Below are positions 6,517-62,951 of a stretch of 64,000 nt of DNA, in pieces (within the stretch, counting starts at the first letter, position 1; each line of letters begins with the position of its first letter). The stretch is from Chiloscyllium plagiosum (Eukaryota). The DNA is taken from assembly GCF_004010195.1 (NCBI RefSeq), contig NC_057741.1:17773899-17837898 (forward strand), given 5' to 3'. The position numbers and the translations under genes were made by a program. The notes under the pieces are model-generated. The model had not been told where the DNA came from. It did no database searches and saw only the letters and a program-made list of their open reading frames with translations.

Positions 6517-6966
6517 TTGCTACAAGGGACTCTTCTGTCAAGGGCACAGACAGGACATTCTGTGGCAGTGAGTGTGAATCACGGACACAGTATATTGTTT
6601 TCCTTGTGTCAGGGTTAAAGACGCATCAAACCATTTGAAGCATATCGTCAAAAGGGAGAGTAAGAAGCAGGACGTTCTTGTACACATTGGTAGAAACGAC
6701 ATAGTTAGGATAAGGGTTAAGGCTTTGCAGAGTGAATATGAGAGGTTAGGTCAAAGGTTAAAAGTAGTAATGTCTGGTTTACTCCCAGTGTCAAGTTCTA
6801 ATGAGCAAAGGACTAAAAGGATAGGTCAGATAAATCAATGGCTGGAGAGTTGGTGCAATGTGCAGGGATTCAGAGGAGAAAGTGAGGTCTGCAGATGCTG
6901 GAGATCAAAGTTGAAACTTTATTGCTGGAACAGCACAGCAGGTCAGGCAGCATCCAGGGAACAGGA

Positions 6967-7004
6967 GATTCGACGTTTCGGGCACAGGCCCTTCTTCAGG
7001 AATC
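6967..7004 (-). ncRNA. Minimal type I hammerhead ribozyme (PLE-associated)
   Basis: GAUUC-CUGAAGA-A-GGGC-CUGU-GCCC-GAA-ACGU-C-GAAUC: stem I 5 bp, CUGANGA core, stem II 4 bp, palindromic ACGU in place of stem III, GUC cleavage triplet. Confidence 0.75.
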
Positions 7005-7036
7005 AGGCAGAGAGCTTCTTCAAGGAAGGCATCCTT

Positions 7037-7074
7037 GATTCCTGAGGAAGGGCCTGTGCCCGAAACGTCGAATC
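7037..7074 (+). ncRNA. Minimal type I hammerhead ribozyme (PLE-associated)
   Basis: GAUUC-CUGAGGA-A-GGGC-CUGU-GCCC-GAA-ACGU-C-GAAUC; predicted cleavage after C7069. Confidence 0.75.
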
Positions 7075-8089
7075 TCCTGTTCCCTGGATGCTGCCTGACC
7101 TGCTGTGCTGTTCCAGCAATAAAGTTTCAGCAGGGATTCAGAATCTTGTATCATTGAGATTTTTTCTGGGGTAGAAAAGGTTTGTTCAAAAGGGATGGGT
7201 TTCTCCTGAATGGGAAATATCCTGGTGGGGAGATTTGCTAATTTTATTTCAGGAGCTTGTAAACTATTAGAGAGGGAGTGTGAGGGGTTCCTAAGTTGAA
7301 ATGAAAATAGAAAGACAGATGAGGATGGTTCTGAATCAGAAAAGAGCAAGTTAATTGGAAAAGATGGACAACAGCAAGAGAGAGAACAAGATAACCCTGA
7401 AGAATTAAACTGCATTTATTTCAAGAAAGGGGTCTTACAAGTGAGGCGGATGAACTCAGGGCATGTATTGTAACATGGGACTAGGACATCATAGCTATTA
7501 CAGAAACTTGGCTGAGGGAAGGACAGGACTAGCAGCTCAATGTTCCAGATTTTAGATGCTGTAGGAAGGGAGGCATGAGAGGTGAGGGAGTGGTATTTTT
7601 AATTAAGGAACACATTACTACTGTAATTAGAGAGGACAATTCTGAAGGACCATCCAATGAAAACATATGGGTTGAAATTAGAAATAAGAAAGGGATAATC
7701 ATCTTGTTGCGATTGCACTATAGGCCCCCCCAGTAGTCAGAAGAAAATTGAGGAGCAAATATGTAGATAGATCTCAGATATATGTGAGAATAATACGATT
7801 GTAATAGTAGGGGTTTTAATTTTCCAAATATTGACTGGGACTGCTATGGAGTTAAAGGAGAGTTCTCACCTCTCCTCCCCTGCCCCCCACCCTGCCTTAT
7901 TGCTTTTTTATTGTCCTCTGCTGGTTTTTAAAAGTTTCTGATATAGATCCTGGTTAAATACTGCCACTCACTCTTGAGGCTCGCATAGTCATAATTGTCA
8001 CTGAGGAGCTGACACCTTTTGAACTGTAACTCAATGTGTCAAGGCCTTCACAATAGGCAGGAGAAATCTGGAATGGAACATTTGTTAAA

Positions 8090-22574: not shown

Positions 22575-25410
22575 AGGAAATCTTACTGGAATTTGCTGGA
22601 AGGTGAGAATAGGCTGCCGGCTCATATTTAGACTGGTGCTGACATAATGTGCTGTAATTTTCCTTGACTCTATAAACTGAGGGGTCTGCCTGCTTGGTTC
22701 CTCTGAAATTTTAATCAATACCTTTGTCTCCAAGGGTGCCTCCATTTTGAGGTACCTTTGATCTGTATCCACAGACCCCACCTCTTCTAGTGGCTGAAGG
22801 TGTTGGCCCTCTGAGTCAGCAACATTGGAAGCTCACTCATTGAGGTGAGAACTGGAATCCGGAAATCATTTCTTTATAAACAACAATCCACGTTAACCCT
22901 GATCTGTTCTGCCCTCACAACAGATGGATGAGCTCTTTACCTTCAGCTAGGTATTTGTACCTGATGAGGTGACACTTACATTGGCTTCCATAACATAAGA
23001 GCAACATAATACTGAAAGATTCAATAGATGTTTATTACAGCTCCTGGTATGAATAGATGTTACAATTGCAGCCACTTTTTTGTCTGGGTTAGTACTGAGT
23101 AAGTCAGTGACCATCTGTAGCATGTCATGCGGCAAGTGGCCCCAGTAAGATGGACACTGAGGTCTTTGTACAATCAGAGTCCTGCTATGATTCAGTGAAG
23201 ATAGCATCAACATGAATCTTAAAGGACTAGTGCATACTAGCTGAGAGACATGATATAACACTCACCATCCACAATAGAATGGAGAGTGTAGAAGCTTGGC
23301 TCCCAGGCTCTAGTCCCAAGCTCAGGGTCTAAAATCCATAGCAAAAATCCTGCCAAAACCCTTGGTGACTGCAGTTAAAATTTACATCCTTATGCTTAGA
23401 ATTTTTTAAAATATCTGATCTTTACCATCTTCAATTCATTCATCTTTCCAGCCCCTTCAACCTCTCCCCCAAAATTTCTACTCCTCTCACTTTTGTACAT
23501 CTCATATTCTCAACTCACAGACACTGGCATCTGATAAATGTCAACCTCAGAGCACATCTCCAATCCACTTACAGGACACTTTTGCATTTCAATGCTGCAT
23601 CACGGGCTGCAATTGCACCTACCACTGTGAATCTGCAGTATTACACTTTGCACTCAGACGCACATACCCAGCTCATGGACTGTGGACCAGCTTATATTTC
23701 CAGTTTCTTCACTCTCTGACATAGTGCTCATTCACTTTGGTCCTACATTGCAGTGCCTTGTCTTGTCTTTTTTGCACTTTGCACTCTCAGCTACAGTTAC
23801 TGTTGTGAAAGAATTATTCAATGTTCTATAAAAAATTACCAGGCAACACAAAAAAATCCTTCACAAAATTAAACTTTAATCTTGCAAAATCCAAGCTGTG
23901 GGAGCCAGCAAAATGTGTTCCCTGACTCCTCCCAAGCTCTTTGTTCTTCTCCAGTTTATACAATTTGTTGGTCCCGCTCTTATCGGATAACATTAGCAGA
24001 GCCAATCATGCTGGCTTGCTTTGCCTTTCTAAATTAATCATTGTCAGTCACACTGGTTCCCTCCATCACACTTAACCTATCACATTACAACACAATCATC
24101 TTCAGCATTAGCTCATCTCCCAGTGATTTAACTAACCTATCACAATGCACTACCATTATCTGTTACTGGCGCCCTGTAACATGATCCCAGGCATACATTG
24201 CAATACTAAGTTAACTACATAATTGCCAGAATAACTTCCATAATACCAGGCTCACAATACTTCTGTCTAGCCTTGCTTTTTTCCCAGAAGTAAAACCAGG
24301 ATGATTGTCACAGTTGTCAGCAGTCTCCAGTCAAGTCAAGGGGATACAGCCTTCACGAAAGGGATCTAGGCACAGTAAGTTGGAGCAGTCTCTTGATACC
24401 AGTTGAGGCTCTGCTTGCAGTGGTCTAAGACAGGATTCTCTCCTCATAAGGAGTGAGAAGCTAATTGATTGGCTGCTACCACTGATCTGACTAGTTTCCT
24501 AGAAAGACAGTGAGGCAGATACTACAGAAATTGAAAGTGGATTGCAGTGCCACTACAAGAAGAAGGTGAGGACTGCAAATGCTGGAGATCAGAGTAGAGA
24601 GTATGATGCTGGAAAAGCACAGCAGGTGAGGCAGCAACTGAGGAGCAGGACAATCAACGTTTCGGGCATAAGGCCCTTCATCAGCCCCTTGCAGCCACTA
24701 CTGCTATGTAGATGTAGAAGTGGCGTGAGCCTGTGAGTTGGCAGCACAGAGTGCATGCAGTGTTGGGGGTTGGAGTGGGTGAGAATATGAAGGAAGATGT
24801 CACAGGCAATAGTGAGAATATCAGAACATGAACCTTGGTAGGAGGTGGGTGCAAGAGCAGAGATAGAGTGAGTGTGAGGTATTGGAGACAAAGTGGTGGC
24901 ACATACCCTGGTGGAGTGGAGAAGGATATTTGCCTACATCCTGCAGTGCTGGTCATCCTTCCAGATCATTGAGAGTGCTTTAATACAAGTAGTAACGAGA
25001 ACAATGCTGGTCCATTGCTTGTCCTGAGGTAGAGTACAATCCCTTGTCAGTACCTCTTCCACCCATACCCCTGCCATACAGTGGGGCACCAATTTCTCTC
25101 TGTCTGCCATGTCCATATTAATGTCAGGAACATTGCAGGGTACCTTCATACTGACAGCACTTGTCCAGGTGCACAATGACCTTTTGCAGATGGTACAGTG
25201 ATGCTGGTGAATTCTGGGTTATCCACTAAGTGGTGACATATTCTAGAATGGTGCTGCTAAGATGAGGCAGAAATCAGACATGAGGGACACCAGGAAACTA
25301 ATGAGGCCAGGTAGGGCGAGAAAACTCACTAGACCTTGTGACAAAGAAAACCCCTCGAAAAACTTCAACACAACTTGGACTTGGCCCAAAAATCTTAAGA
25401 TTCAGCCCAT
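22575..25410 (-). mobile_element. Degenerate PIF/Harbinger-like DNA transposon with Myb/SANT-like gene remnant (~24905-25110)
   Basis: KLVPH..WVEEVLTR...and .RTxQHCR...ANxLLHSTR|gt resemble Harbinger Myb/SANT proteins (KxAPRF..LVEEV..QCRKK.NDL); terminal aagattcagccc at ~25398-25409; boundaries weak. Confidence 0.4.
24560..24684 (-). mobile_element. Short PLE terminal fragment with hammerhead core
   Basis: Minus strand CUGAUGA-A-GGGC-CUUAU-GCCC-GAA-ACGU-U; plus strand gtgaggactgcaaatgctggagatcagag terminus. Confidence 0.75.
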
Positions 25411-29820: not shown

Positions 29821-31190
29821 CCCATTAACAACTCTATTGGAGCTATCCCTGTATTTTCATGAGGGGTGGTCCTACAATCAAATAGGAACAGGACAATTTG
29901 GTATCTAGTGAAGCTATAGGCTGTTTCCTTAAAGTTTTGACTGCGGGTTCTATCAGACCATTGGATGATGGATGATATAGAGCTGTCCTTATATGTTGCA
30001 TACGTTAGGAAATACTCAAATTCCCTGCTGGTAAACGATGGCCTGTTATCTGTGACCAGCACTTCCAGAGTCTGGGTATTGCAAAAGATGTGTTGACGAA
30101 TGAACTTTAAGCACGTCCAACCATTTTGAGTGGATGTCCACAATGACTAAGCACATTGAGCCTATGAAAGGACATGCATAGTCGACATGTAACTGAGGCC
30201 AGCGTTTACCCAGCCATTCCCACAAATGTAGGGGAGCTGCTGGTGATAATTTTTGTCCTTGTCGGCACTCTGGGCAATGCCCCACCAATGTGGCTATTTC
30301 TGCATCCAATTCTGGCCACCAGACATAACTTCTAGGCAACATCTTCATTTTGGAAACCCCTGGATGACCTTACTGGAGTTCAGTCAGTATCTGGCAGTGA
30401 CTCTTGCTCCCCATAATAATATGCTATTCCCTACGGGTCTAAAAAGGTTTCATTTCTGGTTGTGACGGCCCTTTGATGTCCCCCATCACTCCCACTAGTT
30501 TCAGTTTTGCCAGGACTGGATCTCTCAGCATCCAACATCTGATATTTTCAGCTGTGACTGGAAGTGAGTCCAGAAAAATTAAAACTATTATGGATTCTAT
30601 CAGTGAGAGTATCACTGGTGATGTATCTGCCAGCAGGAGGCAGCTGAGTGTGTCCGCATAGGTTACTTGGCCTCCCGGACAGTGTGGAGAAAGTGAGGTC
30701 TGCAGATGCTGGAGATCAAAGTTGAAACTTTATTGCTGGAACAGCACAGCAGGTCAGGCAGCATCCAGGGAACAGGAGATTCGACGTTTCGGGCACAGGC
30801 CCTTCTCCCGGACAGTGTTTCAACTTGTAATTATACGCATTCCTCTCTATTAGGCCACTTACATACTAACACTATCCCAGTGTGGTGCAGGGAGGCATTA
30901 TATGTCAATCCCAGATCTCGCTTAGGATTATAGTGTGCCAAACTATGGCTTGGTTATGTGACAACTTCCAAGGCTGGCCCTTTTCTAGGAGTTAATGCAA
31001 AGGTATCAGGATGGAGGCCAGGTTATGTATAAATTTTCTGGGAAAATTCACCAGCCCAAGGAAAGACCTAAGCTTCGGTACAGATGTGGGAGCCAGGGCA
31101 CTTTTAATCACCCTCACTTTATCTTCCAATGGTACAATGATCTTGTCAACTCTGTAGCCCAGGTAGATCTGAACAAAGAGACCTTGTACT
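29820..31190 (-). mobile_element. Gypsy pol fragment (RT C-terminus, RNase H, integrase), degenerate
   Basis: YLGYRVD, LRSFLGLVN, RSYVWWPELDAEI..GHCPEC (integrase zinc finger), LHVDYACPF..LVIVDIHSKW, LVTDNRPSFTSREF, TTPH..TGIAPIELLMG. Confidence 0.85.
30686..30804 (-). mobile_element. Young PLE terminal insertion with 14-bp TSD
   Basis: Identical to 6875-6993; TSD CTCCCGGACAGTGT at 30672-30685 and 30805-30818; truncated inside the hammerhead core. Confidence 0.85.
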
Positions 31191-42084: not shown

Positions 42085-42838
42085 AGGCATTTGGCACACT
42101 TGATTTCACTGGGTGATAGCATTGAATATAGCAGTTGGGATGCCATGTTATGGCTATACAAGACATTTGTTAGGCCATTTTTAGAATACTGCGTTCAATT
42201 CTAGTCACACTTCCATTGGAGGATATTGTTAAACTGGAGAGGGCACAGAAAAGATTTACGTGGATGTTGCCTGCACTGGAGGATTAGAGCTATAGGGATA
42301 GGATAGACAGGCTGGGGCTTTTTCCCCTGGAGCATCAGTGGCTGAGAGGTGACCTGATAGAGACATATAAAATCATAAGGGGCATGGATAGGGTGAATAG
42401 CCAATCTTTTTCCTAGGGTGAGTGGGGTCCAAAATTAGAGGTGAGAGGAGAAAGATTTAAAAGATCTAAAAGGTAAATTTAAAACATTTGGAAGAGGAAA
42501 GATTTCTGCTGCACAGAACTCATCTCTTCCTATTTCAACACAGTTTTTTCTCCCCTTGACCAGTTCCTGCCCACTTACATCTGCGGAGTTCTGAGGAAGG
42601 GTCACTGGACCCGAAACATTAACTCTGATTTCTCTCCACAGATGCTGCCAGACCAGCTGAGCTTTTCCGACAATTTCAGTTTTTGTTTAAAAAGGACCGG
42701 AGGGCTAACCTTTTCACATAGAGGGTGATGCATGTGTGGAATGAACTGCCAGAGGTAGGTGGAGATGGATAAAATTACAACATTTACAAGGCACCTGGAA
42801 GGGTCTATGACTGGAAGGGTTTAGAGGGATATTGGACA
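42085..42838 (+). mobile_element. CR1 3' fragment with nested PLE terminus (~42480-42690)
   Basis: IEYSSWDAMLWLYKTFVRPFLEYCVQF; CR1 UTR resumes at ~42690. Confidence 0.75.
42586..42625 (+). ncRNA. Minimal hammerhead ribozyme-like motif (PLE), palindrome decayed
   Basis: GAGUU-CUGAGGA-A-GGGUC-ACUG-GACCC-GAA-ACAU-U-AACUC; stems I and II fully paired; ACGU changed to ACAU by a CpG transition. Confidence 0.6.
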
Positions 42839-43133: not shown

Positions 43134-45208
43134 GGTTGTAAGTTTACTCGCTGAGCTGGCATGTTTGTTTTCAAGTGTTTCGTCACTATGCATGGTAAGC
43201 CTCCGATGAAGCACTGGTGTTCTGTCCGGCTTTCTATTTATGTGACTTGGTCTCTTAATGTGAGTGATATCAATTCTGGTTCTTTTTTTCAGAGGTTGGT
43301 AAATGGGGTCCGAATCAATGTGTTTATTGATGGAGTTCTGGTTTGACTGCCAGGCCTCTCAGAATTCGCGTGCATATCTCTGTTTAACCTGTCCTAAGAT
43401 GGATGTGTTGTCCTTCGTCTGTATGTAAGGATATTAATGATAATAGGTCATGTCCTTTGGTGGCTAGACACAGAAAAGGCTGTCCTAGTAAGAGGGATGA
43501 ACTACAACGACAGAGATATGGACAAAAAGGATTTCTTAGCAGTATTAGAATCAACCCTGAAAGACAATGGACTCACAGAAGAAACCCACCAGACCATCAA
43601 ACAAACAGGTGCACAGGAAGGAGGAAGGAGACATCCTCAACACACAGGAAAGGAAAGCCCTAGAAGGACTCAGAAAAGACAGAAACCTCATAATTCTACC
43701 TGCAGAGAAAGGGCGTATGACCGCCATCCAAAACAAAACACAATACATTGAAAAGGTGAACTCACTTCTGCCAGATACTGATACCCACCAACAGGTGATG
43801 ATAGACTCAACTCCACAGCTAGAATTCCTGAATATCAAAGACACCAAGATAGAAAAGGACAAAATAATGATCTCCTTTGACATAAACACCCTATTCTCAT
43901 CAACTAACATCAATCTGGCCAAAGAGGCACTGACCGCACTACGAGATGAACCAAGGACATAAACACCAGACAGCACCAATTCCAACAGCAAGGACAGCAT
44001 CCTCAAGCTAGTAGACCTGTGCCTCACTACCCACTTCACCTTCAATGACAAGACCCACAAATAAATCAATGGAACACCCATGCGATCACCAGTATCAAGC
44101 TTCTTAGCAGAAGCAGTAATGCAGAGACTTGAACAAACAGCCAACCTCACGATTCAATCCAAACTTTGGGTCTACTACGTAGATGAGACCTTTGTCATCA
44201 CAAAATGGAACAAAATAGAGGAAACCTACAACATCCTTATTGGCATAAATTTCATAAAAGAGGAGGAGAACAACAACAGATTCCCCAACCTAGATGTCAC
44301 AGTGGAACAAACAGTTAATGCAGCCCAGCGTCTACAGGAAAGCAATACACACAAACCAAATACTCAACTACAGAAGCAATCATCCCAACACCCACAAATG
44401 GAGCTGCATCAGGACATTATTTAAATGGGCTACAATACCCTGCAGCACCCAGGAACTATAAGCAGAAGAAAAATACCTATACAGCGTATTCAAGAAGAAC
44501 GGGTAGCCCACCAATTCTTAAAAACAACAAACCCAAACAAATAGACACAACATGCCTAGAAACTCTAGCCACACTATCATACATAAAAGACATCTTGGAG
44601 ATGACTACAAGGTTACTCCAACCCCTTGGCATCATGGTAGCCCACAACGCTGCCAACACACTGAAACAGCTACTGACGAACCTAAAGGATCCTATACCAA
44701 CCAGCAAAACGAAAGTCATTTACAAAATACCATGCAAGGACTGTAACAAATACTACATTGGACAGTCAGACAGAAAACTTGCCACCAGGATACACCAACA
44801 CGAACTAGCCACCAAAAGACATGACCCACTATCACTAGTATCCTTAAATACAGATGAAGAAGGACACCACTTCAACTGGGGCACCACATATCCTAGGACA
44901 GGTTAAACGGAGACACACACGGGAATTTCTAGAGGCCTGGTGTTCAAACTGGAACTCCATCAATAAATACAACAACTTGGACCCTATATACCAACCTCTG
45001 AGAAAAAGTACTGGAAATGATATCACCCACCTTAAGAGACCAAGACACATAAATAGAGAGCGGGACAGAATACCAGCGTTTCACCGGAGGCTCACTGATG
45101 ATGTTACCTAGCATGGTGATGAAACACCCGAAAACAAACCTGCCAGCTCAGTGAGCAAACTTACAACCTGAACCTCAATCTGGGCTACAAATCCTCTCAA
45201 AAATTGCT
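43134..45208 (+). mobile_element. Penelope-like retroelement (RT + GIY-YIG, degenerate) with inverted 5' pseudo-LTR and 11-bp TSD
   Basis: IILPAEKGRMT, MISFDINTLF, GTPMRSPVS..LAE..MQRLE, YVDETFVI, VIYKIPCKDCNKYYIGQS.RKLATRI.QH; 43134-43467 is an inverted copy of 44805-45168; TSD GTACAATTTAA at 43123-43133 and 45209-45219; hammerhead remnant at 45092-45132. Confidence 0.92.
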
Positions 45209-50634: not shown

Positions 50635-50725
50635 ATGAAAGTGAGGACTGCAGATGCTGGAGATCAGAGTCGAGAATGTGGTGCTGGAAAAGCACAGCAG
50701 GTCAGGCGGCATCTGAGGAGCAGGA
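50635..50725 (-). mobile_element. Short PLE terminal fragment
   Basis: aaagtgaggactgcagatgctggagatcagagtcgag...gaggagcagga. Confidence 0.75.
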
Positions 50726-53194: not shown

Positions 53195-54495
53195 CTTAAT
53201 ATGTGCTCCTTCTTCTCCAACCGTGGCTTCCCACCTACAGTTGTTGACAGGGCTCTCGACAGCATGCGGTCCATCTCCCGCGCCATGACCCTCATCCCCT
53301 CCCTCCCCTCACAGAACAAGGATAGAGTCCCTCTTGTTCTCACCTTTCACCCCACCAGCCTTCACATGCAAAGAATAATCCTCCACCATTTTCGTCAACT
53401 CCCAACACGACGCCACCACTAAACACATCTTCCCTTCCCTCCCCGTCTGCATTCCGCAGAGATCGTTCCCTCCGAGACAACCTAGTCCACTCCTCCATCA
53501 CAACTAGCACCTCTCCCATCACACACGGCACCTTCCCATCACACCTAACTCCTCTCCCATCACACACGGCACCTTCCCATGCAATCGCGGAAGGTGCAAC
53601 ACCTGCCCCTTTACCTCTTCCATGCTCACCATCCAAGGCTCCAAACACTCATTTCAGATTAAGCAGCATTTCACTTGTACTTCTTTCAATTTGGTCTATT
53701 GCATTCGTTGCTCCCNNNNNNNNNNNNNNNNNNNNNNNNNNNNNNNNNNNNNNNNNNNNNNNNNNNNNNNNNNNNNNNNNNNNNNNNNNNNNNNNNNNNN
53801 NNNNNNNNNNNNNNNNNNNNNNNNNNNNNNNNNNNNNNNNNNNNNNNNNNNNNNNNNNNNNNNNNNNNNNNNNNNNNNNNNNNNNNNNNNNNNNNNNNNN
53901 NNNNNNNNNNNNNNNNNNNNNNNNNNNNNNNNNNNNNNNNNNNNNNNNNNNNNNNNNNNNNNNNNNNNNNNNNNNNNNNNNNNNNNNNNNNNNNNNNNNN
54001 NNNNNNNNNNNNNNNNNNNNNNNNNNNNNNNNNNNNNNNNNNNNNNNNNNNNNNNNNNNNNNNNNNNNNNNNNNNNNNNNNNNNNNNNNNNNNNNNNNNN
54101 NNNNNNNNNNNNNNNNNNNNNNNNNNNNNNNNNNNNNNNNNNNNNNNNNNNNNNNNNNNNNNNNNNNNNNNNNNNNNNNNNNNNNNNCCCATCCCCCACA
54201 TATTTTGTCACATAGCACTGGCTTCAGCCTTGGTCATTCACCGCTCCTAATCTCCCTATAATCTCTCTATGCACTGTCATTATCACCTACCTTTGCTTCA
54301 GGAGCCATGACTCACCTTCTCTCAGCCTAGAATAAATACCTCCCTATTTCTCCCTTTTTTTTAGCTTTAACAAAGGGTCAGTTAGACTCAAAACGTCAGC
54401 TCTTTTCTCTCCTTACAGATGCTGCCAGACCTGCTGAGATTTTCCAGCATTTTCTCTTTTGGTTTCAGATTCCAGCATCCGCAGTAATTTGCTTT
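53195..54495 (+). mobile_element. Penelope-like element 3' part (thumb, GIY-YIG start, 3' terminus) spanning the assembly gap
   Basis: FFSNRGFP, VPLVLTFHP, CNR.RCNTCP, HFTCTSFNLVYCIRC; after the gap a PLE terminus with a variant hammerhead at 54363-54401. Confidence 0.8.
53716..54187. other. Assembly gap (472 N)
   Basis: Run of n. Confidence 1.
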
Positions 54496-61854: not shown

Positions 61855-61970
61855 GTAAAAAGAATGAATGACTGCAGATGCTGGAAACCAGATTCTAGAT
61901 CAGTGGTGCTGGAAGAGCACAGCAATTCAGGCAGCATCCGAGGACAGGCAAAATCGACGTTTCGGGCAAA
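61855..61970 (-). mobile_element. Short PLE terminal fragment
   Basis: gactgcagatgctggaaaccag...aatcgacgtttcgggc (3' half of the hammerhead on the minus strand). Confidence 0.7.
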
Positions 61971-62669
61971 ATGTCTAATGTAGAACAAAAATGATGGTAT
62001 TTAGATACCCTTCAAAGCAGAACTAAAATCAAGAGAACCAGGAACAAAACCAAAAATAAATTGTGAAAACATTCAACATATCAAGCAGCGACAGAAGTGA
62101 TGAGGCAGGTTAGCGAGAAGGGCATTTAATTGGCAGGTTGATAGCATAATTTAACCCTGCCACCTTCCAGCCTCGAAAAGAATTAAAGTCTGGACGGGAA
62201 GGTTCTATGGTCAACATCCCCAACTTGCTGCCAGTGGAGGCCCCAGCCTTAAAGAACACTGTGAATAAAACAGGTGCAAGCTCACCTGCAGATATATGGC
62301 CTTATGCTGGCTCCTGTTTACTTAAAGGATCAGGAGTTGGCAGAAGGACCCTTGATACCTGATCAAGGTGTGGATACAGGCCAGGGCTGTTGCAATCCTC
62401 ATGTCTGGAACTCCGTAGCAATTCCAGGCTGCAGTTCCAGCTGAAGCTATGATTTCCTGTGAGGTACTGCAGAGGTTGAAGCTGACAGCCTCTGATTAAT
62501 CAGAAGCTCCTGGGAAGCAGAATCTCTGCCCCTAGGGCTTAATTCCAGGGTACAACCCGCTGGTGCCCAAAAACTATTCAAGTGGCAAAAGATCTGATAA
62601 GATTACTTCAGGAGATGCAACACAGGTCTCTTGTTGGCTTTAATTTCTCAGGTTGATGACCTTTCATCA

Positions 62670-62951
62670 CCCAACCACCTCGTAGCCCAACACTTTAACT
62701 CCCCCTCCCACTCCACCAAGGACATGCAGGTCCTTGGACTCCTCCATCGCCAGACCATGGCAACACGACGGTTGGAGGAAGAGCGCCTCATCTTCTGCCT
62801 GGGAACCCTCCAACCACAAGTCCTGAAGAAGGACTTATGACCGAAACGTCGATTCTCCTGTTCCTTGGATGCTGCCTGACTTGCTGCGCTTTTCCAGCAA
62901 CACATTTTCAGCTCTGATCTCCAGCATCTGCAGCCCTCACTTTATTTCAAA
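62670..62951 (+). mobile_element. Internally deleted PLE 3' fragment (GIY-YIG C-terminus fused to hammerhead terminus) with 12-bp TSD
   Basis: VAQHFNSPSHSTKDMQVLGLLH..RRLEEERLIFCLGTLQP then CUGAAGA..GAAACGUC; TSD GACCTTTCATCA at 62658-62669 and 62952-62963. Confidence 0.85.

What the first reader, a model, noticed from the sequence alone, without database searches (positions are those of the whole stretch)
6875..7129. Young fold-back retro-insertion with a complete hammerhead ribozyme on each strand
Seen: two 94-bp inverted arms with one mismatch and a perfect 13-bp TSD. Each strand encodes GAUUC-CUGANGA-A-GGGC-CUGU-GCCC-GAA-ACGU-C-GAAUC. The only arm difference falls on N7, the one variable core position (A on minus, G on plus). 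Known: PLE pseudo-LTRs carry minimal type I hammerheads lacking helix III with a palindromic tetranucleotide, proposed to cleave as dimers. Inference: the minus-strand copy would be transcribed in the MGAT4 intron, where the opposite arm could sequester it in a long hairpin. That would make it a self-masking ribozyme cassette, or a retrozyme/MITE-like non-autonomous unit.
Basis: partly seen in the sequence, partly recalled or inferred. Interest (0 to 1): 0.7.

Follow-up and report, generated by a model that had tools for sequence, protein, structure and literature searches.

The report
Ordinary Penelope retrotransposon fold-back stub
This 255-base mirror-image insertion is real but ordinary: it is a short stub of a very abundant Penelope-type jumping gene, with a central join found nowhere else in the genome, likely made when both cut DNA strands at the landing site were copied from the element's RNA, and its two stripped-down ribozyme motifs are predicted to be locked shut in one long hairpin.

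Summary
The anatomy is real: 94-nt arms with one mismatch, a 13-bp TSD confirmed by empty sites in paralogues of the host repeat, and a hammerhead motif on each strand. The hammerheads are minimal (no helix III), not complete. The arms are the pLTR of a young Penelope-like element; the same pLTR follows RT + GIY-YIG ORFs at 95-99% identity. The unmirrored 37 nt is the known PLE tail. The 'spacer' is element sequence lying downstream of the tail. Fold-backs are a routine product: 28 of 72 positionally sampled loci, 27 of 28 with the tail on one arm only. This copy's two central joints occur at 2 and 1 places genome-wide, so it is not a multicopy MITE or retrozyme. N7=G is a 3% family variant, and one arm mismatch is average. 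Masking is predicted but looks like a by-product. Inverted pLTR + tail + TSD + minimal hammerhead is published, and this scan reported the same architecture at least eight times on other DNA. Residual interest: arm 5' ends pile up just upstream of the hammerhead (58 of 101), not at its cut site (6 of 101), which may mark the RNA start.

The parts
6862..6874 (.). left copy of 13-bp target-site duplication; its last 2 nt also match element positions +98/+99 (microhomology at the tail-end junction)
   Evidence: empty-site paralogues; downstream element sequence
6875..6911 (-). 37-nt PLE tail (+61 to +97; +1 = first base after the predicted ribozyme cut), present on this arm only
   Evidence: tail described in PMC3846280, PMC8557442, PMC11167929
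6912..7003 (-). pLTR arm A (-31 to +60), sense on the minus strand
6967..7004 (-). minimal type I hammerhead motif, N7 = A at 6995, predicted cut between 6972 and 6971; no helix III
7005..7037 (-). the 'spacer': element sequence +130 to +162, downstream of the tail (contains the likely ORF start; that label is inferred), joined to arm A at -31 through one extra G; likely a template jump
   Evidence: joint unique in genome
7038..7129 (+). pLTR arm B (-31 to +60), sense on the plus strand, no tail; inversion joint at 7037/7038
   Evidence: joint at 2 places genome-wide
7037..7074 (+). minimal type I hammerhead motif, N7 = G at 7046, predicted cut after C7069; no helix III
7130..7142 (.). right copy of the 13-bp target-site duplication
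6560..7570 (+). old host repeat that was interrupted (paralogues 74-81% identical); SGNH/GDSL-like frame, probably a CR1-type LINE ORF1 remnant (CR1 label recalled)
   Evidence: Pfam Lipase_GDSL_2 E 5.5e-5, below cut-off, on paralogue L197; no Pfam hit on the window fragment itself

Best explanation
This is a short head-to-head stub of an abundant, young Penelope-like retroelement (PLE), likely made in one integration event in which both strands of a staggered cut primed reverse transcription on the element's RNA and the two short copies were joined. Shown: arms are pLTR sequence of an RT + GIY-YIG element; one end stops at +60, the other at +97 (tail); both arms begin at -31; 33 nt of downstream element sequence sit between; a 13-bp TSD frames it. 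Inferred: the two ends are the two internal RT start sites known from the anole PLE; -31 is the RNA's 5' end, where RT ran off; on arm A it then jumped back to about +162, copied to +130, and was joined to arm B through a G microhomology. The hammerheads came along as part of the pLTR. In a host intron transcript the antisense arm is made first and would pair with the sense hammerhead, so the copy is predicted to be inert and unselected.
For: pLTR at 95-99% identity directly behind long RT + GIY-YIG frames in L212, L214, L216, L217, L220 (Pfam RVT_1 over cut-off and GIY-YIG just under on the 2 tested; GIY-YIG over cut-off on L046). 12,396 exact hammerhead cores and 22,843 exact 26-mers from the arm. 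Of 72 loci made from the first 100 hits, 28 are head-to-head fold-backs, 27 of 28 with one short end (+55..+75) and one tail end (+90 or more). Exact TSD of 9 nt or more in 23 of 28, median 15 including end microhomology, against 0 of 756 cross-locus controls. 58 of 101 arm 5' ends at -33..-22; 12 solo copies run from -31 flush against their TSD. Centres differ among short fold-backs: 26 centres, one repeated four times, one (333 nt) twice. This copy's joints occur at 2 and 1 places. Tandem arrays show a different jump-back point in each unit (L028, L103). Published: inverted 5'-truncated copy, one-sided 30-40 bp tail, TSD (PMC8557442, PMC3846280); both strands cut and extended, two RT start sites bounding the tail, hammerhead cleavage not needed for insertion (PMC11167929).
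Against: PMC3846280 explains head-to-head junctions instead by self-priming on an antisense template, which I cannot exclude. The 5'-end count is limited to arms that hold the anchor 26-mer and to the first 14 Mb of one contig; joints inside the self-complementary stretch shift some ends to -22. A cap-derived extra G is weak: 2 of 14 TSD-bearing solo copies. Some longer fold-backs are re-copied with their flank (L041, L062, L105), so not every fold-back is made anew. The Neptune clade label rests on a CxxxxCxxC linker seen by eye, not on a tree.
Confidence: 0.8

Rival explanations
1. Same PLE origin, but the mirror image comes from one cDNA folding back on itself (self-priming, or a switch onto its own nascent strand or an antisense RNA), not from two primed target strands.
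For: Proposed for head-to-head PLE junctions in PMC3846280 (passage). Arms are nearly always from the same source variant: 10 G/G against 3 G/A among informative G-bearing fold-backs, where G is 3% of cores. Many joints are palindromic or use microhomology.
Against: Both outer ends fall on the two fixed 3' end sites that solo copies also use, one of each in 27 of 28 fold-backs. Here arm A has extra element sequence between the arms that a simple fold-back would not insert. The anole protein extends both strands (PMC11167929).
Confidence: 0.13
2. The 255-bp fold-back is itself a non-autonomous mobile unit (MITE- or retrozyme-like) copied whole by PLE proteins.
For: Look-alikes of 218-279 bp with the same outer ends exist. 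L002 shares the inversion joint. Re-copying of longer fold-backs with flank is seen (L041/L062/L105; shared inner joint in L046/L089). One 108-nt centre occurs 4 times in 26.
Against: The jump joint is unique in the genome and L002 has a different one; best other hit is 95% with a different centre (only 40 of 1995 candidates were scored). No terminal inverted repeats at both ends, no head-to-tail units in this copy.
Confidence: 0.04
3. It is a selected self-masking ribozyme cassette that controls cleavage of the host MGAT4-family intron.
For: It probably lies in an intron of a minus-strand MGAT4-family gene. Masking is predicted. The one arm difference sits at the tolerant N7.
Against: Young, one-off, inside a decayed repeat; about 39% of sampled family loci have the same shape. 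No competing fold leaves the ribozyme free, and a minimal hammerhead needs a partner or protein (PMC4209133, PMC11167929). Arm-to-arm mismatch averages 21 of 2183 sites, about 0.9 per 94 nt. G/A arms recur (3 of 13), and L062 is G/A while its sibling L041 with the same joint and flank is A/A.
Confidence: 0.03

Closest known systems
Endonuclease-positive PLE insertion with inverted 5'-truncated pLTR, one-sided tail and TSD (Adineta Pen2a_Av, PMC3846280; Fig. 2 legend of PMC8557442; D. virilis Penelope, PMC2377424)
   Same: Head-to-head inverted pLTR, 37-nt tail on one end only, TSD, hammerhead in the pLTR, RT + C-terminal GIY-YIG parent.
   Different: No ORF body at all: both arms stop at -31; TSD 13 bp against 8-10 bp in the rotifer examples; 33 nt of downstream element sequence at the centre.
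Minimal hammerheads of metazoan PLEs (PMC4209133)
   Same: Core boxes, extra base between 9 and 10.1, G10.1-C11.1 pair, palindromic 15.2-16.2, no helix III; that paper also reports pairs 100-700 bp apart on opposite strands and mostly solo motifs.
   Different: Helix II is 4 bp (7-8 bp in its Schistosoma families); the part I read lists no shark family.
PAc Poseidon element of Anolis (PMC11167929)
   Same: Two fixed 3' end sites bounding the tail; copies that keep the hammerhead uncut.
   Different: PAc RT starts lie 111-118 nt inside the ORF and its hammerhead overlaps the start codon; here both end sites lie upstream of the likely start codon, and the parent has a Cys-rich linker (Neptune-like, by eye).
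Non-LTR retrozymes (PMC7229834; bioRxiv 10.64898/2026.07.22.740005)
   Same: Protein-free, pLTR-derived, hammerhead-bearing; related ~195-bp head-to-tail arrays exist in this genome (L022-L030).
   Different: This copy is head-to-head, not tandem; its hammerhead is minimal; units of the related arrays differ in their inner joint, unlike a fixed monomer.

Membership tests
EN+ Penelope-like element insertion | pLTR attached to a single ORF with RT and C-terminal GIY-YIG endonuclease | tested here: met
   In relatives, not in this stub: L212, L214, L216, L217, L220; L046 GIY-YIG over cut-off
EN+ Penelope-like element insertion | inverted 5'-truncated copy adjacent head-to-head | tested here: met
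EN+ Penelope-like element insertion | 30-40 bp tail at one end only | tested here: met
   37 nt at 6875-6911; 27 of 28 fold-backs one-sided
EN+ Penelope-like element insertion | target-site duplication | tested here: met
Neptune clade of PLEs | Zn-finger-like linker between RT and EN, and RT phylogeny | tested here: inconclusive
   Cys-rich linker visible; no tree built
Minimal PLE hammerhead (PMC4209133) | core boxes, extra base at 9/10.1, G10.1-C11.1, palindromic 15.2-16.2, no helix III | tested here: met
   features
Minimal PLE hammerhead (PMC4209133) | self-cleavage as dimer or with protein help | not testable with these tools
   No pile-up of insertion ends at the cut site (6 of 101); cofolding two copies did not give the active dimer as the lowest-energy state, which is weak evidence
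Complete (canonical) type I hammerhead | three helices, including a base-paired helix III | tested here: not met
   no Rfam match at gathering score
Non-LTR retrozyme | head-to-tail units each holding a hammerhead | tested here: not met
   this copy is head-to-head
Non-LTR retrozyme | abundant circular RNA of unit length | not testable with these tools
   only poly(A) single-cell reads were on hand
MITE | terminal inverted repeats at both ends | tested here: not met
   left 37 nt have no mirror; definition recalled
MITE | many copies of uniform length and interior | tested here: not met

The most novel reading that the evidence does not exclude
The thousands of stubs of this family record the unsolved PLE integration pathway: a dimeric RT-endonuclease primes both target strands at two fixed internal sites, runs off the RNA's 5' end at an initiator-like site just upstream of the uncut hammerhead, and then either stops (solo stub), joins the other strand's copy (fold-back) or jumps back into the leader (heterogeneous ~195-bp arrays that look like retrozymes). 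This locus shows run-off, jump-back and head-to-head joining in one 255-bp event.
Probability: 0.5. Interest if true: 0.45.

Novelty: new member of a known kind. Interest (0 to 1): 0.2.

Why it matters
The locus itself does not matter: it is one of an estimated several thousand fold-back stubs (about 6,400 if 28 per 100 hits holds for all 22,843; extrapolated). The family as a whole is a large natural data set on how PLEs make tandem and inverted insertions, which PMC8557442 names as an open mechanistic question. The end statistics give testable predictions (RNA start at -31, two-strand priming, no need for ribozyme cleavage), but this scan has already reported them from other DNA.

Tried and rejected
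Rfam scan of the window: 0 matches at gathering score. Run search: no RNA holder listed. Presence/absence among individuals: contigs of 4 runs break at the repeat, none spans the site, so no test. Expression, RNA start and cut site: one run laid 1113 reads on both strands with no begin/end pile-up, the other laid none; uninformative, since embedded copies give the same edges. Cap-derived G: 45 of the first 100 copies starting at -31 without C have G (hand count), but 17 of 28 G cases examined are fold-back joints where the other arm can supply it, and only 2 of 14 TSD-bearing solo copies have a spare G; left as a weak hint. Two-template origin of the N7 difference: 3 G/A of 13 fits point change at the measured 0.96% arm mismatch rate; not separable. 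Monomer fold z-scores are unremarkable (-0.53, -1.21). No MGAT4 exon was found inside the window by motif scans. One search (host frame against the endonuclease) showed no similarity. Permissive TSD lengths were replaced by exact ones. The upstream extent of L046 is an artefact of using it as its own reference. No full-length copy with both ends was recovered among 10 long-frame loci. The Lunse 2017 paper was not held. Literature searches gave no paper on this family or on a 5'-end pile-up upstream of the hammerhead; subscription papers and supplements (for example Fig. S2 of PMC11167929) were not seen and may hold it.

Full report
Observation. The window holds 94-nt inverted arms at 6912-7005 and 7036-7129 and an exact 13-nt direct repeat at 6862-6874 and 7130-7142. 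The only arm difference is 6995/7046, the hammerhead N7. Each strand has the core boxes, a 4-bp helix II and helix I, but no helix III and one extra A before G10.1. No Rfam family reaches its threshold in the window. So the motifs are minimal, not complete. The site lies in an old repeat whose paralogues are 74-81% identical. In 4 of 7 fetched paralogues the two flanks join with a 12-13 nt overlap, so the TSD and the 255-bp insertion are real. A paralogue frame has a sub-threshold GDSL/SGNH match; calling it CR1 ORF1 is recalled.

What it is. I number from the predicted cut (+1 = window 7070). The genome holds 12,396 exact copies of the 33-nt core and 22,843 of a 26-mer from the arm; reversed-pattern controls gave 0. 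The same pLTR follows long RT + GIY-YIG frames at 95-99% identity in 5 of 10 long-frame loci fetched (Pfam on 2 of them; L046). It is therefore the pLTR of a young endonuclease-positive Penelope-like element. The unmirrored 6875-6911 is +61..+97. The 'spacer' read on the minus strand is +130..+162 of the element, as seen in copies that continue past the tail.

How common the shape is. The first 100 hits make 72 loci, all fetched. 28 of 72 are head-to-head fold-backs; the rest are solo, tandem, or have a second arm too short or changed to be detected. 27 of 28 pair a short end (+55..+75) with a tail end (+90 or more). 3' ends of all 101 arms peak at +60..+63 (35) and +97..+99 (43). 5' ends: 58 at -33..-22, 6 at -3..+3, 14 upstream of -40. 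Exact TSDs of 9 nt or more frame 23 of 28, against 0 of 756 cross-locus controls. Solo copies running from -31 to one of the two end sites with their own TSD also exist.

Is this copy a family? No. Its inversion joint occurs at 2 places (here and L002, whose other joint differs) and its jump joint at 1. Among 26 short fold-backs the centres differ, except one 108-nt centre seen 4 times, which lies in a self-complementary stretch, and one 333-nt centre seen twice. Against a blanket 'always made anew': L041, L062 and L105 share a flank and have new outer neighbours, and L046 and L089 share an inner joint, so some longer fold-backs are re-copied.

The N7 difference. G at N7 is in 372 of 12,396 cores. 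Of the first 57 G hits, 16 form 8 G/G pairs in the listing; the other 41 were examined: 27 without an opposite arm within 420 nt, 10 fold-backs without an N7 call (one, L175, is G/G by eye), 3 G/A, 1 G/G. So 10 G/G to 3 G/A: arms usually come from one source variant. Arm-to-arm mismatch is 21 of 2183 sites, so one per 94 nt is average, and L062 (G/A) has an A/A sibling. No selection is needed.

Host gene and masking. MGAT4-family exons lie on the minus strand 62-152 kb to the left. A probable first coding exon with a signal-anchor-like stretch and a GT donor lies about 8.4 kb beyond the window's right end (family label from a recalled motif). The element is thus probably intronic. The whole element folds at -204 to -218 kcal/mol, and the minus-strand hammerhead helices drop to pairing probability 0.0. 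This is true of every such fold-back and shows no function.

Mechanism. Shown: two fixed 3' ends, one per arm; 5' ends just upstream of the hammerhead; variable joints; TSDs. Inferred: a staggered cut, both strands priming at the two internal RT start sites, run-off at the RNA 5' end near -31 (initiator-like context, consensus recalled), jump-back into downstream leader on arm A, and joining by microhomology. Arrays such as L028 and L103, whose units each jump from a different point, fit repeated jump-back. RNA data could not test the start site.

What is known. PMC4209133 (parts 1-2 of 4 read: results, discussion): minimal PLE hammerheads, dimer model, low activity, opposite-strand pairs 100-700 bp apart. 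PMC11167929 (parts 1-2 of 4: main text): both strands cut and extended, two RT start sites bound the tail, cleavage is protein-assisted and not needed for insertion. PMC8557442, PMC3846280, PMC2377424, PMC7229834, PMC6765202 (passages only): inverted copy, one-sided tail, TSD, internal promoter in the pLTR, self-priming proposal, retrozymes. bioRxiv 10.64898/2026.07.22.740005 (parts 1-3 of 5): vertebrate retrozymes derive from pLTRs; 1 of 9 tested dimers cleaved. Lunse 2017: reference entry only. No supplements were read. Earlier notes of this scan (288 findings hold the words, 8 shown; none near this place) describe the same architecture and call the organisms sharks; my reading was written before I saw them.

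Verdict. Real, ordinary, a new member of a known kind. Interest 0.2.

Noticed in passing
L041:593-3601, L062:536-1116, L105: A longer fold-back re-copied with its genomic flank; in L041 about 2.4 kb of captured DNA lies between the fold-back and a third pLTR, apparently inside one TSD: PLE-mediated transduction from one source locus.
   Followed up: partly
L046:458-2373 and L089: Two 1.5-1.8 kb fold-backs carrying GIY-YIG on both arms share the same inner inversion joint at different loci.
   Followed up: partly
L022-L030, L103: Head-to-tail arrays of about 195 bp (pLTR, tail, leader) whose units each have a different jump-back joint; they would pass a retrozyme screen but are not one fixed monomer.
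   Followed up: partly
window 62600-62943 (+): Older-subfamily PLE 3' end: endonuclease C-terminal remnant running into a hammerhead pLTR with tail.
   Followed up: partly
window 30686-30812 (-), 24561-24684 (-), 50637-50725, 61872-61968, 42591-42674: Further pLTR stubs; 30686-30812 is 98% identical to the finding's arm A and tail.
   Followed up: no
window 43561-44903 (+) and 53326-53720 (+): Decayed PLE-like RT/endonuclease frames of apparently two different clades (by eye); the second runs into an N gap.
   Followed up: no
window 7038-7070: Counting from -31 as RNA start, the hammerhead's palindromic tetranucleotide falls at +28 to +31, the position of a downstream promoter element; the Penelope element reported in PMC2377424 has the same four-base core. 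Speculative.
   Followed up: no
L212, L213, L221: Short internal tandem repeats inside PLE ORFs that keep the frame open; may be assembly or template-slippage products.
   Followed up: no
L106:9186-9275 (-): Probable first coding exon of the MGAT4-family host gene, 8.4 kb right of the window.
   Followed up: partly
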